DNA of 63,442 nt, filler included, from Nitrospinae bacterium RIFCSPLOWO2_12_FULL_45_22 (GCA_001803565.1; 6 parts of 6 records of this genome joined end to end with filler, not necessarily neighbours in it); one strand, 5' to 3'; positions 9,850-39,303 are shown, counted from the whole stretch's first letter. Numbers and translations are program-made. Notes: a model not told the origin generated them from the sequence alone.

Positions 9850-9949
9850 NNNNNNNNNNNNNNNNNNNNNNNNNNNNNNNNNNNNNNNNNNNNTTAATTA
9901 ATTAANNNNNNNNNNNNNNNNNNNNNNNNNNNNNNNNNNNNNNNNNNNN
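9850..9949. other. Artificial contig junction (N spacer with TTAATTAATTAA linker)
   Basis: 44 N + TTAATTAATTAA + 44 N; genes are truncated on both sides. Confidence 0.98.
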
Positions 9950-15538: not shown

Positions 15539-15644
15539 ACCCCATTTTTTAGTGGCAAATAATTAATTCCTAAAAACCGCATTATTAAAATGAAAATTCC
15601 TATGCAATTAAATTAGGTTGGTCAATGGTTCTGTGTGGGCTGAG

Positions 15645-16475
15645 ATGGTGAAAGAGTATCTTTATGAAGAGTATATAATAAAGGAAGCGCCTTTCTATTT
15701 GCCTATTAGGGATGAGGTAGAGCTGTTTAAGGCGGCCTACTTCTCTAAAATCCCTGTCCTACTGAAAGGACCTACCGGCTGTGGCAAGACCCGTTTTGTG
15801 GAATATATGGCTTATAGTTTAGGGCAGGAAATCTTCCATATCCCCATACCTCTCATAACTGTAGCCTGTCATGAAGACCTGACTGCCAGTGATTTAGTTG
15901 GGCGCTTCTTACTGAAAGGGGATGAGACAGTATGGGTAGATGGCCCGCTAACCAGGGCCGTAAAGATGGGGGCTATATGTTACTTAGATGAGATTGTTGA
16001 AGCCAGGAAAGATACTACCGTATTGATTCATTCCCTGACTGACCATAGAAGGTTCCTGCCTATCGAAAAGCGGGGTCAGATCATAGAAGCTAACGAGAAC
16101 TTCATCCTGATAATTTCTTATAACCCAGGCTATCAGAGTGTCCTAAAAGACCTGAAACAAAGTACTAGACAGCGATTTGTGGCGATAGACTTTGACTACC
16201 CCCCTCGACCCGTAGAGTGCGAAATTATTCAGCAAGAGAGTAGAGTAAGTCCTGATATAGCCTCTAGATTAGCTCAGTTAGGAGAAAAGATACGAAATAT
16301 AAAAAATTATGGCCTCGAGGCAGGGGTAAGTACCAGGCTGTTGATCTATGCAGGTCAGTTGATAAATCAGGGCATCGAATGCAGGAGGGCTTGTCAAATT
16401 GCGGCAGCTAGCTCCTTGACCGATGATTTAGAAGTGCAGCAGGCTATCGGCGAAGTTATATCCACTATCTTTTAA
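15645..16475 (+). CDS. CbbQ/NirQ/NorQ-family MoxR AAA+ ATPase
   Basis: [67 protein letters not shown] 15645 preferred over TTG 15618. Confidence 0.9.
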
Positions 16476-16489
16476 AAAGGGGTTTTGTT

Positions 16490-17116
16490 ATGGAAAGGCA
16501 AGTTTTAGCGCGGATTGCTTTAGGGGTACCTACCAGTAAAGGTGGGGAAGGCGTCTGGGAAGTCATGGAGCGGCGCCGTTCCCAAAGGGTTTATAGCCGG
16601 GAAGGCCTCTCTTTTGATCTCCTCTCTCAGTTGTTATGGGCTACGCAAGGGATTACTGGTCGAGAAGGGCCGTACCTCTTCCGGACAACCCCTTCGGCAG
16701 GCGCCCTCTATCCCCTAGAGACCTATTTAATTGTTCACCGAATAGAGAGACTCAACCCAGGTATTTACCTCCTGGATGTGCCGGAGTTCAGGTTAGAGCT
16801 ATTGAGGGAAGGGGATTTTAGTCAAGAGATTGTCGCCGCCGCCCTGCATCAGTCTATGGCTGCTGCCGCAGCCGTTGTGTTTGTCTGGACGGCTGTTATT
16901 AAGCGCTCTAGCTGGAAATATGGTGAACGGGCCTCCCGATATATCTACCTTGATGCTGGCCATATCGGCCAGAATCTTTATCTTGCTGCTACTGCCCTGG
17001 AGATCGGGTGTTGCACTATAGGGGCTTTTTATGATGATAAAGTAAATCAGCTCATCGGTGTAGACGGCAGGGAAGAAACAGCTATATACCTAGCTGCGGT
17101 TGGAAAGGCAATGTGA
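16490..17116 (+). CDS. SagB/ThcOx-family nitroreductase-like flavoprotein
   Basis: RRRSQR, LSQLLWATQG, RTTPSAGALYPLE, KYGERASRYIYLDAGHIGQNLYL, IGAFYDD. Confidence 0.9.
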   Translation: MERQVLARIALGVPTSKGGEGVWEVMERRRSQRVYSREGLSFDLLSQLLWATQGITGREGPYLFRTTPSAGALYPLETYLIVHRIERLNPGIYLLDVPEFRLELLREGDFSQEIVAAALHQSMAAAAAVVFVWTAVIKRSSWKYGERASRYIYLDAGHIGQNLYLAATALEIGCCTIGAFYDDKVNQLIGVDGREETAIYLAAVGKAM

Positions 17117-17204
17117 AGCATAAACTAAGGCAATCCTTTTTATGAAACGCATAGTTGTTTAACCGTCAGAGGGAAAACTTTAACTATGGATAAATACAGA
17201 TTAG

Positions 17205-17273
17205 GCCACCAAGACACTAAGTCACTAAGGAGTATTAAACAGGTTGCCCTTGGTGTCTTCGTGCCTTCGTGGC
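17205..17273. repeat. CCACNAAG-type 8-mer inverted repeat element
   Basis: GCCACCAAGACACTAAGTCACTAAGG ... CCTTGGTGTCTTCGTGCCTTCGTGGC; related copies at 43607, 47610, 51252 and 63414. Confidence 0.8.
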
Positions 17274-17284
17274 AGAAGAAAATA

Positions 17285-18595
17285 ATGAAACCTATGGTTT
17301 TCTGTTGTTGGCTATTTCTGCTATTGGTTTATCAGCCTACCCTCGCAAGCCAGGGAGATATTGCCGGAAAATACCTCCTTGCCTTTCATGCCTGTGAGCA
17401 GAATACTTGTAACGATCCGAGAAACCACCAGGTCTATTTAGCGGAATCTAACGATGGTGCTATCTGGTCGGTGGTTCCAGGGTGGACACCTCATAATGGC
17501 AGTGTCCCTGATGTCGTCCGCCGAGGAGATAGTCTATATCTTTATTCTACTACGGGCATACGTAGATATCGGTTTCAAACTAAAACCTGGGAAGACCCTT
17601 TACCTGTCACGCTTAAAACAGTATCGGGGGCAGAGGAGATGTATGTTGATCCGAGTCCTATTGTTGATAAAGATGGTCGGATTGTGCTTTTCTATCTGGT
17701 TGGTACTCGAGGATATGACCCTGCGAGATGCGCTCCTGGACAGACAAGCTGCACAAAATACTTCAGGAGCGCTGTAGAAGTTGATGGGAGCGACGGAACA
17801 GACTTTCAAGTGCTGGACGGCAATCGCCTTGAAATACCTATTACCTCGCAGAGTAGTGCCAGTGATCCTGATCTGTTTTCTGATGGATCAAGATATGTTA
17901 TGTATATCTCCCGGGGAAATAGCGTACAAGTCTACACCAGCGCCGAATTGAATGGTGCTTATGCCTTGCTGAGCGGGTTGCCCGAGGGCTATTTGAATCA
18001 AAATACGGGTGGCATACCCTCGGGATTTTACCATGCAGAAACAAGGAAGTATTGGACATATGTCCATATACCCCAGGGAAACATCCAGGTTATCAAACGG
18101 GCGCTACATTCTTCTCTATCAACACCATTGACAGCTACCGATTTTACCACAGTCCTTACCGGGGCTGATGTAGCTGGACTGGGACCCTCATGGTCCGTAG
18201 CCAGCCCCGGGTTTGCAGTCAATGAATCGTCCAGTCCTATTTCAGTCAAGAATATTTTAAATACCAATACCTTTAAACCTGGGGATACCTTAGTATGGGA
18301 AATATTGGTAGATGGTAGTGGTAAGGCCGATATATATCTAGCAATAGTTATTCCGTCAGGGGAGTTTTTCACCATGGAATCTAGTGGCAATTTCGGACCA
18401 GCCAATAAGGCATCACCCATTATTAGCAGTTGGCAAATAACTCCCGGGCAGTACCGAGTATTGGCCTATAGCCTTAGTGGGATAGAACCTCCCGGCACAT
18501 ACTCCTTATATGCCTTGTTAGTGACTGCTGGGAAGAATCCCTTAGAAAGCCATAACTGGCTAGCAGTAGACAGTGTCTCTTTCCATATACCATAA
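17285..18595 (+). CDS. Secreted protein with five-bladed-propeller-like (GH43/GH32-like) blades plus a C-terminal beta domain
   Basis: Signal peptide MKPMVFCCWLFLLLVYQPTLA; repeated VPDVV / VDPSPI / SDPDLF blade motifs. The upstream ATG at 17186 only adds translated repeat DNA. Confidence 0.5.
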   Translation: MKPMVFCCWLFLLLVYQPTLASQGDIAGKYLLAFHACEQNTCNDPRNHQVYLAESNDGAIWSVVPGWTPHNGSVPDVVRRGDSLYLYSTTGIRRYRFQTKTWEDPLPVTLKTVSGAEEMYVDPSPIVDKDGRIVLFYLVGTRGYDPARCAPGQTSCTKYFRSAVEVDGSDGTDFQVLDGNRLEIPITSQSSASDPDLFSDGSRYVMYISRGNSVQVYTSAELNGAYALLSGLPEGYLNQNTGGIPSGFYHAETRKYWTYVHIPQGNIQVIKRALHSSLSTPLTATDFTTVLTGADVAGLGPSWSVASPGFAVNESSSPISVKNILNTNTFKPGDTLVWEILVDGSGKADIYLAIVIPSGEFFTMESSGNFGPANKASPIISSWQITPGQYRVLAYSLSGIEPPGTYSLYALLVTAGKNPLESHNWLAVDSVSFHIP

Positions 18596-18924: not shown

Positions 18925-19024
18925 NNNNNNNNNNNNNNNNNNNNNNNNNNNNNNNNNNNNNNNNNNNNTTAATTAATTAANNNNNNNNNNNNNNNNNNNN
19001 NNNNNNNNNNNNNNNNNNNNNNNN
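18925..19024. other. Artificial contig junction
   Basis: N run containing TTAATTAATTAA. Confidence 0.98.
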
Positions 19025-19029
19025 AATAC

Positions 19030-19158
19030 ATGACCCAGGAAGAGGTCAAGAAATTATTTGACCAGATCAGAGACAAAAGAGACTGGACTTTCTTTGTCTT
19101 AATCTATCATTATGGCTTGAGGGGAAGTAAGGCTTGCCGGATCCAAAGGACAAATTAA
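19030..19158 (+). pseudogene. Tyrosine recombinase (Xer/Fim-like) remnant
   Basis: (Y)MTQEEVKKLFDQIRDKRDWTFFVLIYHYGLRGSK resembles YLTxEEV..L...RD...L.Y..GLRxSE, then stops 8 codons later. Confidence 0.6.
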
Positions 19159-19160
19159 TT

Positions 19161-19200
19161 CCAAAAAATAAGAGGGGAGCGATCAAAAATCTCCCCCCTC
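19161..19200 (-). terminator. Probable intrinsic terminator of the UbiD/Mrp operon
   Basis: Minus strand GAGGGGGGAG...CTCCCCTC stem followed by TTATTTTTT. Confidence 0.55.
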
Positions 19201-19221
19201 TGATAAATGTTTTTACAAAAT

Positions 19222-19281
19222 GTAGGGGCGAACCTATGTGTTCGCCCGAAAAACAGGACAGACACGCAGGTCTGCCCCTAC
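19222..19281. repeat. GTAG-family REP doublet overlapping the stop codon of the downstream Mrp gene
   Basis: GTAGGGGCGAACCTATGTGTTCGCCC ... GGACAGACACGCAGGTCTGCCCCTAC; its minus-strand GTAG supplies the TAG at 19278-19280. Confidence 0.85.
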
Positions 19282-20261
19282 TTTTCTGCCTCTTCTGCTA
19301 AAGCGGCGGAATCGGTGTTCTTTCTCTGGATATTATCTCCTAATTGCACAAGGATTTTGTCTATGATCTGGTTAACAGACTTAGCGGCTTCACTTTCGGC
19401 GAAGGCATGGACAAAGGGTGTCCCATTATCAGATGCCCTGGCCAGACGGGCATCTAAGGGGATTTTACCCAGGAAGGGGACATCAATCTCTTCAGCCAGG
19501 ATCTCTCCCCCCCCTTTCTGGAATATATATTCTATGCCGCCACATTCTTCACATACGTAACCACTCATATTCTCTATGATCCCCAGGATTCTGATACCGG
19601 CCTTTTTAGCCAGCATAGCCGCCTTATATGCTACCCCCTGGGAGACCTGAGAAGGTATGGTGACAATAACCACCCCAGCAGCATCAGGTAGGAATTGGAG
19701 GGTATTTGTAGTATCAGAGCTAGTCCCGGGTGGTAAGTCGATCAGCAAGAAATCTCGCTCCCCAAATACCGTATGGGATAAGAATTCCTCGGTTGCATTT
19801 CTCCTCATCTCGTGGAACCAGGTCAGTACCTCTTCCGATTTGATGAGATTGGCCATAGATAATATCTGGATCCCCATAGGTCCAGGGATCGGCAGTAACC
19901 CATCAGGGGATATCTGCATCTGTATGCCCATGGTTCCCAGCATCTTGGGGATGCAGGGGCCGTCGAAGTCCTGGTCCAATATAGTAACCTTAAAGTCCCG
20001 CATAGCCAGGCCCATCCCTAGATTGGCCGTAGTAATGCTCTTTCCTACACCACCTTTCCCGCCGGCCACAGGGATCTTATATTTTACCTGCGATAAAGCC
20101 GCCTTGGCCTGCTGCATCCTTCGGCGTTCGTAGATCTTAAACCTCTTGGGATCATCACAATCAAAGAATTTTTCACAAGATTCGCACCACCTGCCACAAT
20201 TGAAATCTACATTTATCTCTAAGATATCTCTCTCTACCGCACTTTCTTTCTTTTCCCTCAT
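19278..20261 (-). CDS. Mrp/NBP35-family P-loop ATPase with N-terminal 4-Cys motif (copy 2)
   Basis: GGKGGVGKS, IDLPPGT, GIIENMS, CEEC, LGKIPLD; N-terminal C-x3-C-x2-C-x5-C. Confidence 0.9.
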   Translation of the reverse strand: MREKKESAVERDILEINVDFNCGRWCESCEKFFDCDDPKRFKIYERRRMQQAKAALSQVKYKIPVAGGKGGVGKSITTANLGMGLAMRDFKVTILDQDFDGPCIPKMLGTMGIQMQISPDGLLPIPGPMGIQILSMANLIKSEEVLTWFHEMRRNATEEFLSHTVFGERDFLLIDLPPGTSSDTTNTLQFLPDAAGVVIVTIPSQVSQGVAYKAAMLAKKAGIRILGIIENMSGYVCEECGGIEYIFQKGGGEILAEEIDVPFLGKIPLDARLARASDNGTPFVHAFAESEAAKSVNQIIDKILVQLGDNIQRKNTDSAALAEEAEK

Positions 20262-20277
20262 AATAACTCCTCCATTT

Positions 20278-21774
20278 TTACTTCTTCTTCCATGAAGCCC
20301 GTTCTTTTCCCTCTTCCCATACCCTTTTCATATCCTGAGGATAACCCCACTCCTGCCATTTATTACATATCTTCTCTATGGTCCTTTCTGCGTACATATC
20401 CCAAAAAGTTCCCCTGACAGGAATATCTCTAGTTGGGGACCATTCTAAGGGCCAGGTACAATCGAAGACCACTTTGGTAGTCCTTCCCAGGAGCCTATCC
20501 TCATAGCTAAGGTGGGGTAGGAGAGGTGTTGCCGGCTGATTATCGTAATAAGTTATCCCTTTTTTAGGATGGCACTTGGTAGCAAAGGCATGCAGAACTT
20601 GCTTGATATCGAATACATCTATATCCTCATCGCAGACGAAGAGCTGCTGAAGATTCATACCGGTATTTTTGGTACCGAATAAAAGGGTAGCTATTCTATT
20701 AGCCACATTGCTATGGGGTTTTCCCACAGAGACTATGGCAGCATGAGAGACCATCTGGGGGGGTATGCTTATATCTACCACCGGGATACCATTAATCTCC
20801 ATGGTGGTAAGCATATCCGACCTAGCCAGGACCGCAGCCATCATATCTGAATCATCTGTGGGGACACCCAGGCACGCAACACAATTGATGGGGTTATTTC
20901 TAAAGGTTATAGCAGTGACGCGATAGGCTACCCGGGGCATCCGTGGTGAAGTCCTATAGCCCGTATATTCTCCCACGGGTCCTTCATAGAGCCGGAGGAC
21001 ATCCGGATCTACCACCCCTTCAATGATAATCTCCGCATTAGCCGGGACGTATAATGGCTGTGAGACGCATTTAACCAGCTCAACGGGCTCCAGCCGCAGA
21101 CCACCCGCCCAGTCTACCTCGCTCTTTCCCCGGCCATAAGGGGCAGCCGATACTATTGTGGTAAGGGGTTCAGTCCCTATGACAGCCGCCCAGGGCATGG
21201 GTTTCTTATTGGGAAGATACTTTCCATAAAACATAATACCTATATCTTCTTGCGGCAATAAAAGCCCCCCCAAAGTCGTCTCATTGTGGACCATAAGGTG
21301 GCACATGCCCCAATTAATCCAATCCGTATCGTAATCAGGAGTTGCTATGAACTGCCAGCTACCCAGGTAGCGGCCCCCATCACCCTCATGGATATAAGGG
21401 GCACAGAGCTCCAAAAGGTTGATATCATCACCAGTAATGACATTCTCCTGGCAGGGAGCCTTATCTACAATTAGGGACTTTATAGGGTGTTTAGACCTCC
21501 TATGATATAGGTTCAATATTTCCGAAGGATGGAGGTCGGGGTCCAGGCCTATGGCAATAGCTGCCCGCCGGTAATTAGAGAATAGAGCCCCGGCTAAGCT
21601 ACAGCCCGGGTAGTCCTTTATATTTTCCATGATAGGTGCTGGTGATCCTAGCTGATTAGCTAGCCTAACAATAGCTGAGGCCCCCAGGTCCCAGTCTATC
21701 TCCTCTTTTATCCTGATTGCCTCGCCGGAATCTACTAATGATGAAATATATCCTCTTATATCTCTAAAGGCCAT
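20278..21774 (-). CDS. UbiD-family (prFMN-dependent) carboxylase/decarboxylase subunit 2; catalytic Arg position is His
   Basis: HEGDGGRY, WINWGMCH, VPANAEIIIEG, EGPVGEYTGY, CDEDIDVFD, FDCTWP. Confidence 0.9.
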   Translation of the reverse strand: MAFRDIRGYISSLVDSGEAIRIKEEIDWDLGASAIVRLANQLGSPAPIMENIKDYPGCSLAGALFSNYRRAAIAIGLDPDLHPSEILNLYHRRSKHPIKSLIVDKAPCQENVITGDDINLLELCAPYIHEGDGGRYLGSWQFIATPDYDTDWINWGMCHLMVHNETTLGGLLLPQEDIGIMFYGKYLPNKKPMPWAAVIGTEPLTTIVSAAPYGRGKSEVDWAGGLRLEPVELVKCVSQPLYVPANAEIIIEGVVDPDVLRLYEGPVGEYTGYRTSPRMPRVAYRVTAITFRNNPINCVACLGVPTDDSDMMAAVLARSDMLTTMEINGIPVVDISIPPQMVSHAAIVSVGKPHSNVANRIATLLFGTKNTGMNLQQLFVCDEDIDVFDIKQVLHAFATKCHPKKGITYYDNQPATPLLPHLSYEDRLLGRTTKVVFDCTWPLEWSPTRDIPVRGTFWDMYAERTIEKICNKWQEWGYPQDMKRVWEEGKERASWKKK

Positions 21775-21795
21775 TCTCTATTCACCTCCTTTGGA

Positions 21796-22173
21796 TTAGG
21801 TTAATACACCGGTCGTATGAGCAACCCACTGCAGATCTTTACTCATCTCCAGTATTTCTATGGACCAATTTCCCGGAAATAGTAGACCCCGCTGGGATCG
21901 TACCAATAATATATCCTTATATTTCTTAGGCTCCTGACTTATCTTGGCCTTTACCATCCGGAAACAATACTTCATGCGCCGATTTTCTGGCGCCAATAAT
22001 CTAATAGAGAAAGTTACCTCCTTATCTTGTTCCCCCAATAGCTTGTCCCGGCTATCGTCAAGGATTATGGTGTCATAGACCTCTCTACCTTCCTTCTTTT
22101 TTATCTCATAGGGATCCTCGCCCCAGCTAAAACCCTTATGGACTGCTAAACGCCTGTTTGGTCTCTCGTGCAT
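21796..22173 (-). CDS. Phenylphosphate carboxylase gamma-subunit-like small protein
   Basis: SIRLLAP..KY.FRMVKAKIS..P.KY.D.L.VR..RG.L...WSI.I.E resembles the Ppc gamma subunit pattern as I recall it; located between two UbiD genes; GGGAGGGAG RBS. Confidence 0.7.
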   Translation of the reverse strand: MHERPNRRLAVHKGFSWGEDPYEIKKKEGREVYDTIILDDSRDKLLGEQDKEVTFSIRLLAPENRRMKYCFRMVKAKISQEPKKYKDILLVRSQRGLLFPGNWSIEILEMSKDLQWVAHTTGVLT

Positions 22174-22226
22174 TATGACTCCCTCCCTTTCTTCCAGTAA
22201 TTAACTTGACAATGAATTTTCTTTTT

Positions 22227-22350
22227 GGACGCCGATGAGCGCAGATTTAGCCGATTTTAGGATAAAAAGTAAGCAGACAACTGGTTACGGCTTACTGCTC
22301 CCTATTTTCACTTTAATTTTATCTGTGTGAATCTGCGGGGCTCCGCGTCC
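22227..22350. repeat. GGACGC.GAT / ATC.GCGTCC-type inverted repeat element inside the UbiD operon
   Basis: GGACGCCGATGAGCGCAGATTTAGCCGAT ... ATCTGTGTGAATCTGCGGGGCTCCGCGTCC. Confidence 0.65.
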
Positions 22351-22373
22351 TATAAAATTTAACTTAGGGTATA

Positions 22374-23867
22374 TTATTCCCAGGAAACCAGCTTTTTGCC
22401 GGTTTCCCAAACCTTCTTCATATCTTCTTTGTAACCCAGCCTCTGCCATTGATGGCATACCCCTTCTATAACCCGCTCCGAGTATATATCCCAGAAGGAA
22501 GACCTAACGGGGATATCCCTGGTGGGAGACCAATCCAGGGGCCAGGTGCAGTCATAGACATTCCTGGCCGACTTCCCCCAGATCCTCTCCTCCATACTCA
22601 GATAAGGGGTCAAGGGCATGCCGACCTGATTATCATAAAAGGTCGTTCCTCTCCGGGGATGCCATTTGGTAGCCAATACATGCAGGACTTGGTCTAGGTC
22701 ATAAACATCAACATCCTCATCACATACAATGACATCACGGATAGCCATGCCGGTATTTTTTGTCCCGAAGAGCAGACTGGCTATAAGATTAGCCAGGTTG
22801 GATTGGGGCTTCTTAATGGATACCACCACAGTATGGCCCACCATTTCCGGGGGGACATGGAGCCCTAGCACCGGAATAGCATTGTCTTCCAGGACATTTA
22901 ACATATCAGAGCGGCAGAGGATAGCGAAGGCCATATGGGAATCATCTACCGGTACTCCTAGAGGCGAGTGGGTATGGATCGGGTTATTCCTGTAGGTTAT
23001 AGCTGTCACGTGGAAGGCGGTTCTGGGTGCCCGTGGAGATGTTCTATAACCGCTGTATTCACCCCAAGGTCCTTCATAAGCCCTATCCTCCAGCGTGGGG
23101 TTAACATACCCCTCGATGATAAACTCGGCATTAGCAGGGACATAAAGGGGTTGAGTGACACACTTTACTAGCTCTACTGGCTCAAGCCTCAATCCCCCGG
23201 CCCAATCTACCTCGCTGCGGCCTATACCATAAGGTGCCGCCGAGACAATAGTCGTTATCGGCTCTGTCCCTATAACAGTGGCCCAGGGCATCGGTTTTTT
23301 ATTGGGCAGGTATTTAGTATAAAACTGGTACCCTATATCTTGCATGGGCATTACCAGTCCGCCCAATATCCTTTCATTTTGGATCATCTGGCGGTACATC
23401 CCCCAGTTTATCCAATCGGTATCGTAATCTGGTGTAGCAATGAATTGCCAGGTAGCAATATAGCGGCCAGCATCACCATCATGGGGCATGGGTGACACAA
23501 TATCAAATAAGTTTACCTCGTCCCCGGTTATAACATTCTCCTGACAGGCGCCACGATTTACTATTATAGGCTTTATAGGATGCTTAATCCTTTGATGGTA
23601 AGCATCCAGGACCGTTGCCCGGTCGGAATCGGGGTCTAACCCAATAGCAATAGCTGCTTTACGGTAATTAGAAAAATATCCCCCCATCATCCTCTGGCCA
23701 GGATAGTCCTTAATATTCTCCATGAGGGGTGCCGGCGCATTGAGTTGACATGCCAGCCGGATAATGCCCCCGGCCTCCATATCCCAATCTACCTCGTCCT
23801 TTATCCTTATTAGTTCTCCATGTCTTTCTAAAGCATCTAAAAAATCCCTTAAATCTCTATAAGCCAT
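22374..23867 (-). CDS. UbiD-family (prFMN-dependent) carboxylase subunit 1 with intact Arg/Glu/Glu catalytic set
   Basis: MAYRDLRDFL, HDGDAGRY, WINWGMYR, GTEP, EGPWGEYSGY, CDEDVDVYD, YDCTWP. Confidence 0.92.
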   Translation of the reverse strand: MAYRDLRDFLDALERHGELIRIKDEVDWDMEAGGIIRLACQLNAPAPLMENIKDYPGQRMMGGYFSNYRKAAIAIGLDPDSDRATVLDAYHQRIKHPIKPIIVNRGACQENVITGDEVNLFDIVSPMPHDGDAGRYIATWQFIATPDYDTDWINWGMYRQMIQNERILGGLVMPMQDIGYQFYTKYLPNKKPMPWATVIGTEPITTIVSAAPYGIGRSEVDWAGGLRLEPVELVKCVTQPLYVPANAEFIIEGYVNPTLEDRAYEGPWGEYSGYRTSPRAPRTAFHVTAITYRNNPIHTHSPLGVPVDDSHMAFAILCRSDMLNVLEDNAIPVLGLHVPPEMVGHTVVVSIKKPQSNLANLIASLLFGTKNTGMAIRDVIVCDEDVDVYDLDQVLHVLATKWHPRRGTTFYDNQVGMPLTPYLSMEERIWGKSARNVYDCTWPLDWSPTRDIPVRSSFWDIYSERVIEGVCHQWQRLGYKEDMKKVWETGKKLVSWE

Positions 23868-23882
23868 CTTTACACCCCCTTC

Positions 23883-24842
23883 CTAATAACCAGCGCCATT
23901 GACTCCTATGCTTTCCAGTACCTTATCAGTAATGATTTTTGTGGCCTTTGCTGCTTCGGTTTCCGGAAAGGCTTTTACAAAAGGTATCCCTTCATCAGCA
24001 GTTTTACTCAAAGAACCATCCAAAGGAATTTTGCCTAAAAAAGGTGCTTCTAACTGCCTGGCAAGGCTCTCACCTCCTCCACTAGCCAGGATATCATTCT
24101 TATGGCCACAAAATCGGCAAATATGGCCACTCATATTTTCCACCACCCCCAGGATCCTGACATTAGCCTTCTTGCAAAGGAGAGCGGCCTTAAGGGCAAT
24201 CCCTTGAGAAACTACTGAGGGGATAGTAACCACTAAAGCACCATCTATGTCGGGTATGAATTCCATCGTATTTACCGAGTCAGCACTAGTTCCTGGGGGC
24301 AGGTCAATGATGAGAAAATCTCGTTCCCCATAATCTACATGGGACAAGAATTCCTCCGTGGCACCCCGCCTTAGATCGGTATACCAGGTGATGACCTGGT
24401 CTTTCTCCACCACATTCCCCATAGAGATTATCTGTATCCCCAGTGGACCTTCCACCGGTATGACCCCCTTATTGCCGATCTTAAGCCTTTCCCCCACAGT
24501 GCCCAACATCTTCGGCACACAGGAACCATCAAAATCAGAATCTAATATACTTACCCTGTATCCCCTTAAGGCCAGGTCCATAGAGAAATTAACTGAAACG
24601 GTTGTTTTTCCCACCCCACCTTTGCCACCAACAATGGCGATCTTGTGCTTTATCCTTTTCATCTTTTCCTTAACCAGGCCCATACGGCCGGCATTATATA
24701 TCTCCCATTTTCTGGGGCTGCGGCAATCGAAGAATCTCTCGCATTTGTCACACATGATGCCCCCAAATTCATTCACCGGGCAAGAGAAATCCACATTAAA
24801 TCTTTCCACCGTTAGAGTAATTTTGTTAGATTCCTTCTCCAT
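23883..24842 (-). CDS. Mrp/NBP35-family P-loop ATPase with N-terminal 4-Cys motif (copy 1)
   Basis: GGKGGVGKT, IDLPPGT, GVVENMS, CRFC; N-terminal C-x9-C-x2-C-x5-C. Confidence 0.9.
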   Translation of the reverse strand: MEKESNKITLTVERFNVDFSCPVNEFGGIMCDKCERFFDCRSPRKWEIYNAGRMGLVKEKMKRIKHKIAIVGGKGGVGKTTVSVNFSMDLALRGYRVSILDSDFDGSCVPKMLGTVGERLKIGNKGVIPVEGPLGIQIISMGNVVEKDQVITWYTDLRRGATEEFLSHVDYGERDFLIIDLPPGTSADSVNTMEFIPDIDGALVVTIPSVVSQGIALKAALLCKKANVRILGVVENMSGHICRFCGHKNDILASGGGESLARQLEAPFLGKIPLDGSLSKTADEGIPFVKAFPETEAAKATKIITDKVLESIGVNGAGY

Positions 24843-24953
24843 AGGTTATCTTTCCTCCTCTTCATCAATCAGCGCAGAAAGCACACCTCTTACACCCTGG
24901 CGTTTTCTGCCATCGGTAAGTGAATAGTTACCACAAAGAATAGCCACACCCTA

Positions 24954-25391
24954 TTAATAAGGGAGTGTTATCATTGGTAATAGAGAACTTAGCACTTCAT
25001 ATGAAGGCTCTTTATGGACAAGGATTGCTTTATACCCCATAGCCGACGCCACTATCCATGATTGCGCCGTGGTGAGCCCCAAGCTAGCCTTTATATCCCC
25101 GGCCTTTATTGTTATCCTCTCATCTATACCCACTATCTCTACCGGTAGCACCTTCATATAGAGGTAAAAATCTCGTGCACTTTCTTCGTTTCCTTCCTTC
25201 AAGATAGAATGATAACCCTCCATGATACTCATAAAAGATGCTAAAACCCTGGCCCTGTTTATATAAGCCTCTCTCAAGATCTTTTCTACCTCATCAGCCC
25301 CTTTTTCATTCTCTATGAAGGTCATTAACGCCGTTGTATCCAAAAGATATAATCTTTCCCTATCTGAATTATCCCTTGCCTTTCCTTTCAA
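24954..25391 (-). CDS. PIN-domain (VapC-like) protein with degenerate acidic motif
   Basis: YLLDTTAL, GADEVE, SIMEGY, LTTAQSWIVA, LVHKEPSY; overlaps the upstream AbrB gene. Confidence 0.8.
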   Translation of the reverse strand: MKGKARDNSDRERLYLLDTTALMTFIENEKGADEVEKILREAYINRARVLASFMSIMEGYHSILKEGNEESARDFYLYMKVLPVEIVGIDERITIKAGDIKASLGLTTAQSWIVASAMGYKAILVHKEPSYEVLSSLLPMITLPY

Positions 25392-25611
25392 TACCTCTCT
25401 CTCCTTCCCGCCCTTCAGATAAGGATTTAGAAAGACCGCGTCCCTTATACATACCCCGCACCATAGCGATAGGATCTTCCGGTACAGGAACTACTATCAT
25501 TACCTTTCCGCCATCTATCCACTCCAGTTGGGATTTGGAGGTGATGTTAAATTTCTTGCGCATCTCTGTGGGTATAACGGTCTGGAATCTGGCTGATACC
25601 TTGGTTTTCAC
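25369..25611 (-). CDS. AbrB/MazE/SpoVT-family DNA-binding antitoxin
   Basis: KVSARFQTVIPTEMRKKFNI...LEW...IVVPVPEDPI...RG; upstream of the PIN gene. Confidence 0.85.
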   Translation of the reverse strand: MKTKVSARFQTVIPTEMRKKFNITSKSQLEWIDGGKVMIVVPVPEDPIAMVRGMYKGRGLSKSLSEGREGERGIERKGKG

Positions 25612-25651
25612 CGGACACCCCTTTGCTTTATCGGTTTTCCAATATTAATAG

Positions 25652-25699
25652 TTGTATACGTTATTTTGCTATTATACAAAGCAAAAATAAATATTGCAA
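25652..25699 (-). promoter_or_regulatory. Sigma70 promoter with overlapping palindromic operator for abrB-PIN, possibly also for the UbiD operon
   Basis: Minus strand TTGCAA (25699-25694)-17-TATAAT (25676-25671). Inverted repeat TTGTATA (25652-25658)...TATACAA (25673-25679) overlaps the -10. Confidence 0.7.
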
Positions 25700-25713
25700 G
25701 ACAAATTAATTTT

Positions 25714-27942
25714 TTATTTTGTCTTGAAGGTAAATATACCATCCCAGTCTGTGGGGGGTGGGGATTGGATAAGCTGGTCACAACGGGATAAATAGAGTTG
25801 AGAGGGGTGGTCCTGGGGGTTTAATTGGAGGGCTTTTTGAAAGAGGGCGATAGCTTCAAGCCAGTTTTTTTGCCGGTAATAGGCCAGGGCCTTATGAAAG
25901 AGAGTTACCAATTCCTGGTCTTTATCAGGAGCGTCTAGCCGGTTTAGTACTTCATATATCCTTACTGGTTTATCTTTCCCTTTTACCCTTACCAGGTCTA
26001 ACTCACGGCAGAGGATCTGGTCTTTAATATTTTCATAGGTAAATTCGCTAATGATAATATTAGTCCCGTATTCTTTATTTAAACCTTCCAGGCGGGAACC
26101 CAGATTGACATTATCTCCTAAGACGGTATAATCAAACCGGCTCTCTGAGCCCATGTTTCCTACTACCATCCAGCCGGTATTAATTCCTATCCCGGCTGCT
26201 AATTTAGGGGTACCGGGTGTTTGCTCTTCTTTCTGCATTTCATATAATTCCTGAGTCATATCTAAAGCGGCCAGACAGGCCCTTAAGGCATGGTCTTGCT
26301 GGGGTAACGGGGCGCCAAAGATAGCCATAATGGCATCACCCATATATTTATCTACCAGGCCTTCGTGGCGGAAGACAAGATTGGTCATCCGGGTCAGATA
26401 TTGATTGAGAAAGTGCACCAGGGCTTCAGGCTCCATCTGTTCAGAGATAGTAGTAAAACCGCGGATATCAGAGAATAATACGGTAAGTTCTTTCTTTTCC
26501 CCACCTAAGCGCAGTTGCTCGGGGTTCTTCAACATCTCGCTTACCACCGAAGGGGCTACATAATACTGGAAGGCCCCCCGGATCTTCCTCTTCTCCCGCT
26601 CCTCAGTCATATAGTTAAAGGCTGTTATCCCCAGATAGACCAAAACTATATTTAAGCCAGGATAGACAATGCCCAACCACTGGTTGAACCGCTGGAAGAA
26701 ATACCGGTCAATAAAGAAATAGGCCAGGAACACCAGGACAACAAATAAGAAGCCCCAGGTTGCCCTTATCCTCCCCAGTGTAAGGGAAAGTATCAAGCCG
26801 GTTAAGATAATGGCTATGATATTAAGGATCGCAGTCCAGTTAGGCCGGGTAAGGTAGTCCTGGTGGAGTAAATTATCAATGATATTGGCATGGATTTCTA
26901 AGCCCGGGAAGACACTGCTGAACGGCATGACTCGTAAATCATAAATACCCACCGCAGTAGCACCAATGAGGGCGATCTTATCTTTAAATAAGGTGGGCGA
27001 GAGCCGTCCTTTGAGTAGGTCAGAGAACGAATAATGCGGAAAGGTCTTGGCCTGGCCCCGATAATTAATCAGTAACCGGCCCTGTTCATTGGTAAGGAGG
27101 CGATGCTGGCCCAGGCGGATCTCCTCTACGCCAAAGTCTGCTACCTGGACCGATAAAGTTTCTTCTTCCAGATATTTTTTCACTATTTCTACGGTAAAAG
27201 GAGAATAGAGTTGGTCATGGTATTTAACTACCAGGGGAATGGAGCGGATAGAACCGTCCTGATCCGGAAAGATATTAAAAAAGCCAGAACCACTTACTGC
27301 AGCCGCTAATGAGGGTAGGGGACTCTCGACGGCAAAGGCCTTTACCAGTGGGAAGTCTTTGGCTCTACGGGATTTGAAGCGTGTAAGTGAATAGCCCGTA
27401 GGGAGGTCCTGGTCTTTTTGGGCTACGGTTTTCTGGCCGGTTAGCTCCTCGGGTGAGGTATAGAAGAAATAGCCCAGCACTACTTTTCCGGCCTTCTTTA
27501 TGGCCTGGGCTAACAACTCATCGGGTGAGCGCTCCTTTTCCCAGGACTCTAACCACTGCTCTAATGACGGTTCCTTTAAGCCTAGATCCCGAACTTTCTC
27601 TTTAAAAGACTGTACTGTCCTTGAGTCGCTTTCTTGCTCGGGCTCGGAAAAAACTATATCTATGCCGATGACCTTTACGCCATATTGGCTCAGGAGGTCT
27701 AATCCCTGGGCTATCACCCGTCTGGACCATGGCCACCGGCCTAATTCATCAAGGCTCTTCTCATCTATGGTTACCAGAACTATCTCGCTGCCTGGCTTTT
27801 CTGTTCCACGGGCCAGGAACTGTAAATCCAGGGCCTTTAACTCGATGAATTCCAGGAAGGGTATCTTGAGTAAGTAGAGGCAAACTACACCCAGGGTAAT
27901 TAAGACCCCTAGCTTAAAGGCATTTATCCGCCATAGCTTCAT
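25714..27942 (-). CDS. CHASE2-domain class III adenylate/guanylate cyclase with C-terminal TPR
   Basis: IDEKSL...GRWPW (CHASE2), PGLEIHA, three TM helices, LFSDIRGFT, DKYMGDAIMA, GDNVNLGSRLEG, VKGK. Confidence 0.93.
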   Translation of the reverse strand: MKLWRINAFKLGVLITLGVVCLYLLKIPFLEFIELKALDLQFLARGTEKPGSEIVLVTIDEKSLDELGRWPWSRRVIAQGLDLLSQYGVKVIGIDIVFSEPEQESDSRTVQSFKEKVRDLGLKEPSLEQWLESWEKERSPDELLAQAIKKAGKVVLGYFFYTSPEELTGQKTVAQKDQDLPTGYSLTRFKSRRAKDFPLVKAFAVESPLPSLAAAVSGSGFFNIFPDQDGSIRSIPLVVKYHDQLYSPFTVEIVKKYLEEETLSVQVADFGVEEIRLGQHRLLTNEQGRLLINYRGQAKTFPHYSFSDLLKGRLSPTLFKDKIALIGATAVGIYDLRVMPFSSVFPGLEIHANIIDNLLHQDYLTRPNWTAILNIIAIILTGLILSLTLGRIRATWGFLFVVLVFLAYFFIDRYFFQRFNQWLGIVYPGLNIVLVYLGITAFNYMTEEREKRKIRGAFQYYVAPSVVSEMLKNPEQLRLGGEKKELTVLFSDIRGFTTISEQMEPEALVHFLNQYLTRMTNLVFRHEGLVDKYMGDAIMAIFGAPLPQQDHALRACLAALDMTQELYEMQKEEQTPGTPKLAAGIGINTGWMVVGNMGSESRFDYTVLGDNVNLGSRLEGLNKEYGTNIIISEFTYENIKDQILCRELDLVRVKGKDKPVRIYEVLNRLDAPDKDQELVTLFHKALAYYRQKNWLEAIALFQKALQLNPQDHPSQLYLSRCDQLIQSPPPTDWDGIFTFKTK

Positions 27943-27991
27943 CTGGCAAAGCGACCGATTGCTAACAGGGCTGTGATCAACCTATTAATAG

Positions 27992-28091
27992 NNNNNNNNN
28001 NNNNNNNNNNNNNNNNNNNNNNNNNNNNNNNNNNNTTAATTAATTAANNNNNNNNNNNNNNNNNNNNNNNNNNNNNNNNNNNNNNNNNNNN
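27992..28091. other. Artificial contig junction
   Basis: N run containing TTAATTAATTAA. Confidence 0.98.
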
Positions 28092-29146: not shown

Positions 29147-29246
29147 TTTATCTACCTAAATAGACGATCCCGGCAAATTAATCGTATTCATCGCATTCTT
29201 TTTGCTCGAGTTTAGATGGCCGATAAGGCCACCTTCGCAGGGTCAC

Positions 29247-37347: not shown

Positions 37348-37357
37348 TGTTTAAACC

Positions 37358-39203: not shown

Positions 39204-39303
39204 NNNNNNNNNNNNNNNNNNNNNNNNNNNNNNNNNNNNNNNNNNNNTTAATTAATTAANNNNNNNNNNNNNNNNNNNNNNNNNNNNNNNNNNNNNNNNN
39301 NNN
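39204..39303. other. Artificial contig junction
   Basis: N run containing TTAATTAATTAA. Confidence 0.98.

What the first reader, a model, noticed from the sequence alone, without database searches (positions are those of the whole stretch)
19278..24842. Symmetrical Mrp-UbiD-gamma-UbiD-Mrp operon: candidate ATP-coupled anaerobic arene carboxylase
Seen: five co-oriented genes in mirror order (P-loop ATPase, UbiD, 125-aa Ppc-gamma-like protein, UbiD, P-loop ATPase). All gaps are about 15-21 nt except one of 200 nt that holds a repeat, and the unit ends in a terminator. The contig has no phenylphosphate synthase, no delta-type phosphatase and no ubiX. Established knowledge, from memory: phenylphosphate carboxylase uses two UbiD subunits plus gamma and delta. 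The proposed anaerobic naphthalene and benzene carboxylase clusters instead pair UbiDs with ParA/MinD/Mrp-like ATPases and small accessory proteins. Inference: this is a compact, possibly undescribed carboxylase for a non-activated aromatic or heteroaromatic substrate, in which ATPases rather than phosphoester cleavage drive CO2 fixation.
Basis: partly seen in the sequence, partly recalled or inferred. Interest (0 to 1): 0.85.

Follow-up and report, generated by a model that had tools for sequence, protein, structure and literature searches.

The report
Compact benzene-carboxylase-like UbiD/Mrp operon
This five-gene operon is a compact, rearranged relative of the still unproven enzyme system thought to attach CO2 to benzene without oxygen, and it helps to define the small set of genes such an enzyme may need.

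Summary
The five co-oriented genes are real: Mrp1, UbiD1, a 125-aa gamma-like protein, UbiD2 and Mrp2, on the minus strand at 24842-19278. The "window" is in fact six MAG contigs joined by N linkers, and the operon lies on an 8,967-bp contig.

Both UbiDs fall below the PpcA cut-off. With full support they sit in the clade that holds the UbiD of the published Thermincolales abcD-abcA-bzlA-ubiX locus (60% identity). The small protein is AbcD-type.

One Mrp1-type and one Mrp2-type gene flank every homologous locus (7 of 7 rows). Across 98 loci rows, Mrp genes and delta-type phosphatase genes never occur together.

New here: the catalytic subunit is duplicated, and one copy carries His in place of the Glu-Arg-Glu arginine. 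The Mrp pair is split to the two ends. There is no ligase or ubiX alongside. All five genes are under strong purifying selection.

Mrp/ParA-type ATPases beside abcAD and in naphthalene carboxylase are already in print. This scan had already noted the sister operon (e1-1063396).

Verdict: a new variant of a known but uncharacterised kind. ATP coupling is plausible and unproven.

The parts
23883..24842 (-). Mrp1: Mrp/NBP35-type P-loop ATPase (319 aa). It has an N-terminal C-x9-C-x2-C-x5-C motif, a GKGGVGKT Walker A and a CRFC motif.
   Evidence: PF10609 scores 238.9 bits. It is below the MrpORP and ApbC equivalog cut-offs (226 against 450; 175 against 348). Invariant columns are C21, C31, C34, C40, G73-K79, C242 and C245 in 25 UbiD-linked Mrps. 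It lies in the Mrp1-type clade of 6 rows, support 100/99.
22374..23867 (-). [quoted passage not shown]
   Evidence: All three UbiD Pfam domains are present. TIGR02723 scores 392.4 against 564.6. It lies in the AbcA-like clade, support 100/98. It is 60% identical to the Thermincolales UbiD of L040.
22174..22373 (-). 200-nt intergenic spacer with an imperfect inverted repeat (arms at 22222-22247 and 22330-22355).
   Evidence: The fold z-score is -1.07. The spacer is not conserved in L039. There is no Rfam match and no convincing small ORF.
21796..22173 (-). AbcD-type gamma-like small subunit (125 aa) with an N-terminal extension of about 45 aa.
   Evidence: PF09662 scores 26.9 bits against 25. 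TIGR02725 scores 31.1 against 135.55. The extension is shared by 5 of 5 AbcA-linked small subunits and is absent from 6 shorter gamma sequences; a seventh (L112) has a different N-terminus. In 1.84 billion representatives only 3 clusters match at E <= 1e-10.
20278..21774 (-). UbiD2: paralogous AbcA-like UbiD subunit (498 aa) with Cys158-His159 where UbiD1 has Tyr-Arg. [quoted passage not shown]
   Evidence: It is 64% identical to UbiD1. His159 aligns with Fdc1 R173 (chain offset 17). The same Cys-His is seen in L039, P0004 and P0005; P0003 keeps Tyr-Arg. It lies in the UbiD2 clade, support 100/97.
19278..20261 (-). Mrp2: second Mrp/NBP35-type P-loop ATPase (327 aa). It has a C-x4-C-x2-C-x5-C motif, a GKGGVGKS Walker A and a CEEC motif.
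   Evidence: PF10609 scores 236.1 bits. It lies in the Mrp2-type clade of 6 rows, support 99/95, sister to the Mrp1-type clade at 91/94.
19226..19278 (-). Two terminator-like hairpins immediately after the Mrp2 stop codon.
   Evidence: stems at 19278-19255 (9 pairs, tail GTTTTTCGGG) and 19247-19226 (8 pairs). The scan as a whole was not enriched over shuffles.

Best explanation
The operon encodes a self-contained prFMN-dependent UbiD-type carboxylase of the AbcA/AbcD (putative anaerobic benzene carboxylase) kind. It would act on an aromatic substrate that is not activated by phosphorylation.

Proposed roles of the parts:
- UbiD1 is the catalytic subunit.
- UbiD2 is a duplicated subunit that has lost the catalytic arginine. 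It most likely serves as a non-canonical or structural partner in a hetero-oligomer, much as Ppc and naphthalene carboxylase combine several UbiD paralogues.
- The 125-aa AbcD-type protein is the small subunit.
- Mrp1 and Mrp2 form a dedicated Nbp35/Cfd1-like heterodimer. It would carry [4Fe-4S] clusters on the N-terminal four-Cys motif and on a bridging CxxC motif, and would hydrolyse ATP.

The most likely job of the Mrp pair is ATP-dependent activation or energy coupling of the otherwise slightly endergonic carboxylation. In that role it would take the place that the delta phosphatase and the phosphoester hold in phenylphosphate carboxylase.

Shown here: family membership, clade, motifs, conserved linkage and purifying selection. 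Inferred: complex formation, Fe-S binding, ATP use, direction of the reaction and the substrate.
For: (1) Clade. A careful IQ-TREE of 43 rows puts UbiD1+UbiD2 (8 rows, 100/98) sister to the Thermincolales-type group (9 rows, 100/100). Together they form a clade of 17 rows (100/98). A FastTree of 264 rows agrees.

(2) The Thermincolales locus L040 reads Mrp2-type, Mrp1-type, 126-aa gamma, UbiD512, benzoate-CoA ligase (670.9 bits against a cut-off of 375), UbiX, MarR. That is the published abcD-abcA-bzlA-ubiX order (PMC13101534 and PMC5852087, passages). The MAG is described as carrying putative benzene-activating carboxylase genes (PMC11465651, abstract).

(3) Linkage. An Mrp lies within 4 kb in 7 of 7 AbcA-like rows, 2 of 3 of the next group and 5 of 6 N47-like rows, but in only 1 of 82 PpcA-like rows (1 of the 41 with at least 4 kb on both sides). 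KdsC/PpcD-type HAD genes lie beside 0 of 16 rows of the Mrp-linked clades and beside 52 of 82 PpcA-like rows. No row has both.

(4) Each AbcA-like locus holds one Mrp1-type and one Mrp2-type gene (clades 100/99 and 99/95).

(5) Across 25 UbiD-linked Mrps the invariant residues include the four N-terminal Cys, the GKGGxGK Walker A and the CxxC. The last two are the Mrp/NBP35 signatures. Nbp35 carries an extra N-terminal 4Fe-4S cluster (PMC6345978, passages).

(6) Selection. Against L039 (GC 60% against 45%) the five proteins are 81-91% identical, while third codon positions are only 49-58% identical.

(7) The genome can make the cofactor. RibBA, UbiX and a CTP-dependent riboflavin kinase lie together on C6.

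(8) The genome carries aryl-CoA-reductase-type genes: 4 AFOR_N and 10 BcrAD_BadFG matches, a bzdN-like gene at 433.6 bits against 453.8, and a 664-aa FMN/Fe-S old-yellow-enzyme-family oxidoreductase. These sit beside other UbiD/Mrp clusters.

(9) Extract data in print show ATP stimulation of naphthalene carboxylation. Whether the carboxylase uses ATP directly or the effect runs through the ligase is unresolved (PMC12016498, passages).
Against: - No benzoate-CoA-ligase-family gene reaches its cut-off anywhere in the 85%-complete genome (best 243.9 bits against 375.25). None lies beside the operon, unlike the Thermincolales locus.
- No biochemical proof of benzene carboxylation exists for any AbcA (PMC13101534, passages).
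- 60% identity does not fix the substrate.
- Isotope exchange on naphthoate runs without ATP (PMC12016498), so at least the late steps need no ATPase.
- The cluster holds no obvious Fe-S client or electron partner.
- The linkage counts are over related loci, not independent events. The 7 AbcA-like rows come from 5 loci, 2 of them near-identical.
- UbiD2's His in place of Arg could equally mean a changed chemistry.
- The position of the AbcA-like clade relative to the PpcA and N47-type clades is unresolved (open forks).
Confidence: 0.5

Rival explanations
1. The enzyme is the same, but the Mrp pair is only an assembly factor. It would be an Fe-S carrier or scaffold, or an anoxic cofactor-maturation helper (for example for oxidising or inserting prFMN where O2 is absent). 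It would be needed to make the holo-enzyme and would take no part in turnover or energy coupling.
For: - Characterised Mrp/NBP35 proteins are Fe-S scaffolds or carriers, and some are encoded beside their client complex (PMC6345978, passages).
- The physiological oxidant for prFMN in strict anaerobes is unknown, and accessory maturases exist (PMC13040415, passages).
- In Fdc1, oxidative maturation depends on the same Arg that UbiD2 lacks (PMC5818171, abstract and passages).
- The only four strong PF10609 genes in this genome are the UbiD-linked ones. The next hit scores 65 bits.
- Naphthoate/CO2 exchange runs without ATP.
Against: - PpcA-like UbiDs of strict anaerobes need the same cofactor, yet almost never have an Mrp neighbour (1 of 82 rows).
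- Mrp and delta-type phosphatase genes are mutually exclusive. This fits an energetic role better than general maturation.
- The UbiDs and gamma show no Fe-S-type Cys motif. Only 3-4 scattered conserved Cys are present.
Confidence: 0.25
2. The complex is not a hydrocarbon carboxylase. It is a reversible decarboxylase or carboxylase for some other aromatic, heteroaromatic or phenolic acid, and the AbcA resemblance reflects subfamily rather than substrate.
For: - Most characterised UbiD enzymes are decarboxylases. The closest solved structures are HudA and Fdc1 (E about 1e-67).
- The operon has no ligase, regulator or transporter for aromatics alongside. It sits between toxin-antitoxin modules.
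- In the relative G001 it is the only UbiD cluster besides one other UbiD gene (3 matches).
- No AbcA has been assayed.
Against: - All named relatives with the same gamma plus Mrp-pair module are from benzene, naphthalene or 1-methylnaphthalene-type clusters or cultures by record title.
- The genome holds N47-like carboxylase paralogues and aryl-CoA-reductase-type genes.
Confidence: 0.2
3. It is a phenylphosphate carboxylase (PpcABCD) variant.
For: The best NCBIfam names are phenyl_P_alpha and phenyl_P_gamma. Two UbiD paralogues plus a gamma resemble the Ppc alpha/beta/gamma set.
Against: - All four Ppc equivalog cut-offs are missed: alpha 392 and 403 against 564.6; beta 172 and 184 against 469; gamma 31 against 135.6; delta best 152.6 against 282, on another contig that has no UbiD.
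- The S. aromaticivorans control passes the alpha model at 674.6 bits.
- No HAD gene neighbours the operon.
- UbiD2 is a recent paralogue of UbiD1, not a PpcB.
Confidence: 0.02

Closest known systems
Putative anaerobic benzene carboxylase cluster abcD-abcA-bzlA-ubiX with neighbouring MRP genes (culture BF / Thermincolales; here locus L040, record JAVSMW010000006.1)
   Same: - Same UbiD clade (100/98); 60% identity.
- Same AbcD-type small subunit with the N-terminal extension (51% identity in the alignment; 58% over a 108-residue BLASTP segment).
- One Mrp1-type plus one Mrp2-type gene adjacent.
- A C-terminal UbiD extension of about 20 aa, with Cys471 in 15 of 16 sequences.
   Different: - Here the UbiD is duplicated, and one copy has His for the Glu-Arg-Glu arginine.
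- The Mrp pair is split to the two ends (mirror order).
- No bzlA, ubiX, MarR, riboflavin kinase or HAD lies alongside.
- The host is a sparsely sampled lineage, not Thermincolales.
- I identified L040's genes as abcD/abcA from the record title and the published gene order. I did not compare them with the deposited AbcA sequence.
Naphthalene carboxylase cluster of N47 / NaphS2 (K27540-K27460; loci L046, L065)
   Same: A PpcA-like UbiD, a gamma and two Mrp/ParA-MinD-type ATPases with the same six invariant Cys. ATP stimulation is reported in extracts.
   Different: - The alpha subunit is only 46-48% identical and lies in a separate clade.
- The gamma is short (87 aa).
- The N47 Mrp pair is paralogous, not orthologous, to Mrp1/Mrp2.
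- The N47 cluster adds three further UbiD paralogues and linker proteins, which are absent here. This genome does carry such genes on other contigs: C5, C231 and C256.
Phenylphosphate carboxylase PpcABCD
   Same: Several UbiD-family subunits plus a small Phenyl_P_gamma-family subunit. The chemistry depends on prFMN/UbiX.
   Different: All equivalog cut-offs are missed. There is no delta phosphatase. Mrp ATPases stand in its place, and the two accessory types are mutually exclusive across 98 rows.
Nbp35-Cfd1 / Mrp / ApbC Fe-S scaffold ATPases
   Same: A deviant Walker A, a CxxC motif and an Nbp35-like N-terminal four-Cys motif. There are two conserved paralogues per locus, as in the Nbp35-Cfd1 heterodimer. 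The motif spacing of Nbp35 and the heterodimer are recalled; the signatures themselves come from PMC6345978.
   Different: The scores are below the MrpORP and ApbC equivalog cut-offs. The genes are encoded with UbiD enzymes, which have no known Fe-S cluster. Both paralogues carry the N-terminal Cys motif.
Sister operon in the MAG titled 'Nitrospinota bacterium NC_groundwater_123' (L039; earlier scan note e1-1063396)
   Same: The same five genes in the same mirror order, at 81-91% protein identity. UbiD2 has Cys-His there too.
   Different: - The GC content is 60% against 45%.
- L039 has a sixth gene after Mrp2, a small Zn-ribbon protein (seen as an off-frame tblastn hit to the C69 Zn-ribbon gene). 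This window lacks it.
- The flanking genes differ.

Membership tests
Phenylphosphate carboxylase (PpcABCD) | The alpha subunit reaches the TIGR02723 equivalog cut-off (564.6 bits). | tested here: not met
   UbiD1 scores 392.4 and UbiD2 403.2. The positive control from S. aromaticivorans scores 674.6.
Phenylphosphate carboxylase (PpcABCD) | The beta (TIGR02724) and gamma (TIGR02725) equivalogs are present. | tested here: not met
   Beta scores 172 and 184.2 against 468.95. Gamma scores 31.1 against 135.55. The Pfam gamma domain is only just over its cut-off (26.9 against 25).
Phenylphosphate carboxylase (PpcABCD) | A delta phosphatase (KdsC-like HAD) is encoded with the UbiDs, and a phenylphosphate synthase is in the genome. 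| tested here: not met
   No HAD gene lies near the operon or near any AbcA-like locus (0 of 7 rows). The best TIGR02726 hit scores 152.6 against 281.95 on C146, a contig with no UbiD. Only one PPDK_N ORF is present. The genome is 85% complete, so absence is not proven.
AbcDA-type putative anaerobic benzene carboxylase cluster | The UbiD subunit lies in the same clade as the abcA-position gene of the Thermincolales benzene culture. | tested here: met
   The clade holds 17 rows at 100/98. Identity is 60%.
AbcDA-type putative anaerobic benzene carboxylase cluster | An AbcD-type small subunit lies directly beside the UbiD. | tested here: met
   The 125-aa protein shares the N-terminal extension with 4 other AbcA-linked small subunits. 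A gamma gene lies within 1.5 kb in 7 of 7 rows.
AbcDA-type putative anaerobic benzene carboxylase cluster | A benzoate-CoA ligase (bzlA) and ubiX lie in the same cluster. | tested here: not met
   Neither is on C35, L021 or L039. The best TIGR02262 hit in the genome scores 243.9 against 375.25. UbiX is on C6.
AbcDA-type putative anaerobic benzene carboxylase cluster | Benzene-dependent expression or benzene carboxylation. | not testable with these tools
   No RNA run holding the stretch is listed. No enzyme assay of any AbcA is in the papers read.
Naphthalene carboxylase cluster (N47 type) | A K27540-type alpha plus further UbiD paralogues (K27500/480/460) and linker proteins in one cluster. 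| tested here: not met
   The alpha subunits of N47 and NaphS2 fall in a different clade. The operon has no further UbiD types or linker ORFs. Such genes lie on C5, C231 and C256 instead.
Mrp/NBP35 P-loop ATPases | A deviant Walker A GKGGhGK[ST], a conserved CxxC, and PF10609 over its cut-off. | tested here: met
   The signatures are as stated in PMC6345978.
Mrp/NBP35 P-loop ATPases | Binding of [4Fe-4S] clusters and ATPase activity. | not testable with these tools
   Only the motifs were seen.
UbiD family (prFMN-dependent decarboxylases) | The Glu-Arg-Glu active-site network. | tested here: inconclusive
   UbiD1 has R159, E265 and E270. UbiD2 has H159, E265 and E270. H159 aligns with Fdc1 R173. 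In Fdc1, R173K is inactive and R173A nearly so (PMC5818171). The feature is met for one paralogue and not for the other.

The most novel reading that the evidence does not exclude
Mrp1/Mrp2 is a NifH-like, ATP-driven Fe-S module that docks on a UbiD1/UbiD2/AbcD core. It supplies energy or a redox activation step for prFMN-dependent C-H carboxylation of unactivated arenes. That would make this five-gene set the minimal form of a new class of ATP-dependent carboxylase, in which an Fe-S ATPase replaced the phosphatase and phosphoester of phenylphosphate carboxylase. The arginine-less UbiD2 would be the docking or regulatory subunit.
Probability: 0.25. Interest if true: 0.85.

Novelty: new variant of a known kind. 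Interest (0 to 1): 0.5.

Why it matters
Anaerobic benzene and PAH carboxylation is a long-standing open problem. The genes have been known since 2010, but no enzyme has been reconstituted, and it is unsettled whether ATP is used by the carboxylase itself.

This operon and its homologues narrow the conserved core to four gene types: an AbcA-type UbiD, an AbcD-type small subunit, and one Mrp1-type plus one Mrp2-type Fe-S ATPase. In this lineage all of them are packed into 5.6 kb with no other pathway genes. They have been kept under strong purifying selection in two genomes of very different GC content.

The Mrp and delta-phosphatase genes are mutually exclusive across UbiD loci. That gives a concrete, testable reason to include the ATPases in any reconstitution. 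The arginine-less second UbiD suggests that a hetero-oligomer, not a homomer, should be expressed.

Tried and rejected
- Complex prediction. UbiD1 + gamma + Mrp1 (alignments A1, A3, A4) gave no verdict: score 0.02 against a mark of 0.32, and the controls were not run. This counts neither for nor against binding.
- Expression. No RNA holder is listed among the 23 runs returned. I did not lay reads.
- Spacer. There is no Rfam match at E <= 0.1 on the whole contig; the two matches had E of 0.61 and 0.76. The fold is no better than shuffles. The spacer is not conserved in L039. There is no credible small ORF.
- Promoter scan. It was not enriched (9 found against 13.1 +/- 3.8 in shuffles), and no hit lies in the 111 nt upstream of Mrp1.
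- Zn-ribbon sixth gene. It is present in L039 but absent downstream of Mrp2 here. The only homologue in this genome is on C69.
- Deep placement. The position of the AbcA-like clade relative to the PpcA-type and N47-type clades is unresolved (forks under 80).
- Koelschbach et al. 2019 (naphthalene carboxylase subunits) is not held. Its content is known to me only through PMC10570749, PMC12016498 and PMC6849830. Abu Laban 2010 and Luo 2014 were not read.
- Contexts of P0002, P0003 and P0005, the other members of the UbiD1 and UbiD2 clades, could not be fetched. Whether they share the mirror order is unknown.
- Recent horizontal transfer as the reason for 91% identity with L039 was considered and rejected. 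Third codon positions are near saturation, and each operon matches its host's GC.
- One search failed with a tool error and was repeated.

Full report
OBSERVATION

- Mrp1, 24842-23883, 319 aa
- UbiD1, 23867-22374, 497 aa
- a 125-aa protein, 22173-21796
- UbiD2, 21774-20278, 498 aa
- Mrp2, 20261-19278, 327 aa

The gaps are 15, 200, 21 and 16 nt. Pfam gives PF10609 (Mrp/NUBPL P-loop NTPase) at 238.9 and 236.1 bits, all three UbiD domains in both long ORFs, and PF09662 (Phenyl_P_gamma) at 26.9 bits against a cut-off of 25. UbiD1 and UbiD2 are 64% identical. Mrp1 and Mrp2 are 52% identical. Two terminator-like hairpins begin at the Mrp2 stop codon.

Two points of the observation do not hold up.

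First, the window is not one contig. Five N44-TTAATTAATTAA-N44 linkers join six contigs of a MAG. The operon's contig is C35, 8,967 bp, window 19025-27991. What the "contig" lacks is therefore not informative.

Second, the "repeat" in the 200-nt spacer is an imperfect inverted repeat. Its fold is no better than shuffles (z = -1.07). It is not conserved in the related operon and matches no Rfam family.

WHAT THE UbiDs ARE

Against NCBIfam the best model is phenyl_P_alpha. The scores of 392 and 403 bits are far below the cut-off of 564.6. Comparators:

| Protein | TIGR02723 bits |
|---|---|
| Syntrophorhabdus aromaticivorans PpcA-type | 674.6 |
| this genome's C5 UbiD | 490 |
| N47 alpha | 463 |
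| Thermincolales UbiD | 431 |

The word-indexed search found only about 14 clusters at 55% identity or more. Identity then drops to 52% or below, among proteins that their sources name PpcA-like or UbiD.

The scan of species genomes kept 80 of 249 relatives, in 79 loci:
- The best is 91% identical. Its record is titled "Nitrospinota bacterium NC_groundwater_123" (L039).
- The second is 60% identical. It lies on contig JAVSMW010000006.1 of the Thermincolales MAG from the nitrate-reducing benzene culture NRBC (L040).
- All others are 52% or less.

L040 reads Mrp, Mrp, 126-aa gamma, UbiD512, benzoate-CoA ligase (670.9 bits against 375), UbiX, MarR. This is the published abcD-abcA-bzlA-ubiX order (PMC13101534 and PMC5852087, passages). 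The MAG paper says it holds putative benzene-activating carboxylase genes (PMC11465651, abstract). I did not align with the deposited AbcA sequence itself.

A FastTree of 264 UbiD rows and a careful IQ-TREE of 43 rows agree on these clades:

| Clade | Rows | Support |
|---|---|---|
| UbiD1 | 4 | 100/99 |
| UbiD2 | 4 | 100/97 |
| UbiD1 + UbiD2 | 8 | 100/98 |
| Thermincolales-type | 9 | 100/100 |
| all together | 17 | 100/98 |

The duplication therefore arose inside this lineage, after its split from the Thermincolales type. How the whole clade relates to the PpcA-type and N47-type alpha clades is unresolved.

THE SMALL SUBUNIT

The 125-aa protein shares an N-terminal extension of about 45 aa with the four other small subunits that sit beside AbcA-like UbiDs. 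The gamma proteins of N47, NaphS2, S. aromaticivorans and this genome's C5 cluster are 84-91 aa and lack the extension. Read against 1.84 billion representatives, only 17 proteins match at E <= 1e-3 and 3 at E <= 1e-10. The AbcD type is therefore rare.

THE Mrp GENES

I examined 98 loci rows of the alpha-type UbiD clade. The table counts rows with an Mrp gene within 4 kb and rows with a KdsC/PpcD-type HAD gene within 4 kb.

| Group | Rows | Mrp within 4 kb | HAD within 4 kb |
|---|---|---|---|
| AbcA-like | 7 | 7 | 0 |
| next group | 3 | 2 | 0 |
| N47-like | 6 | 5 | 0 |
| PpcA-like remainder | 82 | 1 | 52 |

- In the PpcA-like remainder, 41 rows have at least 4 kb of flank on both sides, and 1 of those has an Mrp.
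- That one exception, L113, is itself an N47-style cluster.
- No row has both an Mrp and a HAD gene.
- Ten HAD genes were checked against TIGR02726. For 7 it is the best model and for 3 the second best, at 113-246 bits. All ten are under the cut-off of 282.

These rows are related loci, not independent events. The 7 AbcA-like rows come from L022, L023 and its near-duplicate L024, L036, L039 (two UbiDs) and L040.

The Mrp tree (36 rows) shows an Mrp1-type clade (6 rows, 100/99) and an Mrp2-type clade (6 rows, 99/95). They are sisters at 91/94. Every AbcA-like locus holds one gene of each type. The N47 and NaphS2 pair belongs to other clades.

In 25 UbiD-linked Mrps the invariant residues include four N-terminal Cys (C-x(4-11)-C-x2-C-x5-C), GKGGxGK and CxxC. 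The deviant Walker A and the CxxC are the Mrp/NBP35 signatures. The CxxC binds a bridging [4Fe-4S] cluster, and Nbp35 has an extra N-terminal cluster (PMC6345978, passages).

In this genome the only four strong PF10609 genes are the four UbiD-linked ones. The next hit scores 65 bits.

WHAT IS PARTICULAR HERE

1. Gene order. Other loci have gamma-UbiD-Mrp2-Mrp1 or Mrp2-Mrp1-gamma-UbiD. Here and in L039 the order is Mrp1-UbiD1-gamma-UbiD2-Mrp2.

2. UbiD2 carries Cys158-His159 where UbiD1 and all other alpha-type sequences have Tyr-Arg.
   - The same change is seen in L039, P0004 and P0005. P0003 keeps Tyr-Arg.
   - His159 aligns with Fdc1 R173.
   - In Fdc1, efficient catalysis needs the intact Glu277-Arg173-Glu282 network. 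R173K is inactive. R173A is nearly inactive and is also impaired in oxidative cofactor maturation (PMC5818171).
   - One N47 paralogue (the UbiD at L046:11008-12522) also lacks this Arg.

3. No ligase, UbiX or regulator lies alongside. The neighbours are a PIN/AbrB-type toxin-antitoxin pair and a CHASE2 cyclase upstream. Downstream, in L021, lies a MazF-type toxin gene.

4. Conservation. The window's genome and L039's genome are the only 2 of 41 searched genomes with the gene. They share only the order, and the other 39 share only the domain.
   - Their GC contents are 45% and 60%.
   - The five proteins are 81-91% identical, while third codon positions are 49-58% identical.
   - A GyrA C-terminal fragment is 56% identical.
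   - All five genes, UbiD2 included, are thus under strong purifying selection.

5. In G001 (68% complete) the operon's two UbiDs and one other are the only UbiD matches. This suggests that the unit works on its own.

GENOME CONTEXT

The MAG is 3.67 Mb in 321 contigs, 85% complete. It has 11 UbiD matches:
- On C5 lies an N47-like set: UbiD, 78 aa, UbiD, 97 aa, UbiD476, gamma91, Mrp.
- On C231 lies Mrp-UbiD-UbiD, divergent from a bzdN-like gene (433.6 bits against 453.8).
- On C69 a UbiD lies beside a 664-aa FMN/Fe-S old-yellow-enzyme-type oxidoreductase, HGD-D genes and beta-oxidation genes.
- On C1 lies a menaquinone-type UbiD-UbiA-MqnC group.

RibBA, UbiX and a CTP-dependent riboflavin kinase lie together on C6. 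The same kinase family lies in the Thermincolales cluster. There are 4 AFOR_N and 10 BcrAD_BadFG matches.

No benzoate-CoA-ligase-family gene reaches its cut-off. No PpcD does. There is a single PPDK_N ORF.

The operon occurs near-identically in 20 DNA runs labelled groundwater, soil or sediment metagenome. Two of them may be its own source.

HOW IT LIKELY WORKS

The best-supported reading is an AbcDA-type, prFMN-dependent carboxylase for an aromatic substrate that is not phosphorylated. Its core would be UbiD1, UbiD2 and gamma, with a dedicated Mrp1/Mrp2 Fe-S ATPase partner.

The Mrp genes are tied to the arene-type alpha clades and excluded from the phosphatase-bearing PpcA-type loci. This favours a role in driving or activating the reaction over a role in general anoxic cofactor maturation, which PpcA-type enzymes of strict anaerobes would need too.

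Print data show ATP stimulation of naphthalene carboxylation in extracts, with direct use unresolved. They also show ATP-independent carboxyl exchange (PMC12016498). Any ATP-dependent step would therefore lie early, or in activation.

An assembly or maturation role remains a serious rival. The oxidant for prFMN in strict anaerobes is unknown (PMC13040415).

None of the following was tested here: complex formation, cluster binding, ATP hydrolysis, reaction direction, substrate.

COMPARISON AND NOVELTY

The kind is known:
- abcAD with co-transcribed MRP genes (PMC5852087);
- naphthalene and phenanthrene carboxylase clusters with two MRP/ParA-MinD ATPases (PMC6849830 Table 2; PMC10570749).

Earlier notes of this scan described the sister operon (e1-1063396) and the Thermincola supercluster with its Nbp35-like Mrps (e1-2512292, e1-2512293). 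My results agree with them.

- the Arg-to-His change in the duplicated subunit;
- the orthology of an Mrp1/Mrp2 pair across all AbcA-like loci;
- the mutual exclusion of Mrp and delta-type HAD genes;
- the selection evidence across two GC-divergent genomes.

My literature searches turned up no paper on this compact mirrored form. They were not designed to exclude one.

I rate it a new variant of a known but biochemically uncharacterised kind, with interest 0.5.

Noticed in passing
window 9850-9949, 18925-19024, 27992-28091, 39204-39303, 54644-54743: The window is six MAG contigs (C32, C34, C35, C36, C38, C42) joined by N44-TTAATTAATTAA-N44 linkers. Neighbourhood arguments across these points are invalid.
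   Followed up: yes
window 24954-25611; L021:8600-8989: The operon is bracketed by toxin-antitoxin modules. Upstream lie a PIN (VapC-type) gene at 24954-25391 and a MazE/AbrB-type antitoxin at 25369-25611. Downstream, in the longer assembly L021, lies a PemK/MazF-type toxin. L039 also has a PIN gene upstream (51% identity).
   Followed up: partly
G000 contigs C5, C231, C256, C69 (loci L013, L015, L017, L014): The same genome carries N47-type naphthalene-carboxylase-like genes split over several contigs. They include two more UbiD-linked Mrps, a bzdN-like gene, and a 664-aa OYE-type oxidoreductase next to HGD-D and beta-oxidation genes.
   Followed up: partly
G000 whole genome: The only four strong PF10609 (Mrp/NUBPL) matches, at 237-287 bits, are the four UbiD-linked genes. 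The next match scores 65 bits. No stand-alone housekeeping Mrp/ApbC was seen in this 85%-complete MAG.
   Followed up: no
L046:1922-3811, L065:1447-3450, L043:5372-7288, L047:6029-7981, L049:3673-5598: N47-type clusters carry, upstream of the alpha gene, a 629-667-aa protein whose Mrp-like part forms its own clade (100/100) next to this genome's C5 Mrp. This looks like a fused Mrp with an unexamined extra domain.
   Followed up: no
G000:C6:4192-6574 (L019); L040:3600-4037: UbiX sits between RibBA and a CTP-dependent (archaeal-type, DUF120) riboflavin kinase. The same kinase family lies inside the Thermincolales abc supercluster. This hints at a dedicated FMN/prFMN supply module.
   Followed up: no
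window 45881-48926 (contig C38): An AMP-forming CoA ligase (best model cyclohexanecarboxylate-CoA ligase-like, 422 bits, below its cut-off) lies next to an HGD-D family protein. A response regulator and a PAS histidine kinase are adjacent.
   Followed up: partly
window 15618-18595 (contig C34): A CbbQ/NirQ-type AAA ATPase, a SagB-type dehydrogenase (151 bits against a cut-off of 78) and a 469-aa protein with no Pfam or NCBIfam match follow gyrB-gyrA.
   Followed up: no
window 28148-39172 (contig C36): A run of radical SAM/SPASM and B12-binding radical SAM genes is interleaved with a glycosyltransferase, a Wzy-type ligase, a polysaccharide flippase and a sulfatase.
   Followed up: no
window 19278-24842 vs L039:6987-12517: The proteins are 81-91% identical, although GC3 is 0.48-0.53 here and 0.71-0.81 there. 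Only about half of the identical residues use the same codon. A GyrA fragment is just 56% identical. The conservation is unusually tight for genomes that share only an order.
   Followed up: yes
UbiD1 residues 478-497 and 471; AbcA-like clade: AbcA-like UbiDs share a C-terminal extension of about 20 aa. They also share a Cys at position 471 (15 of 16 sequences) that is Leu, Val, Thr or Glu in the six comparison UbiDs outside the clade.
   Followed up: no
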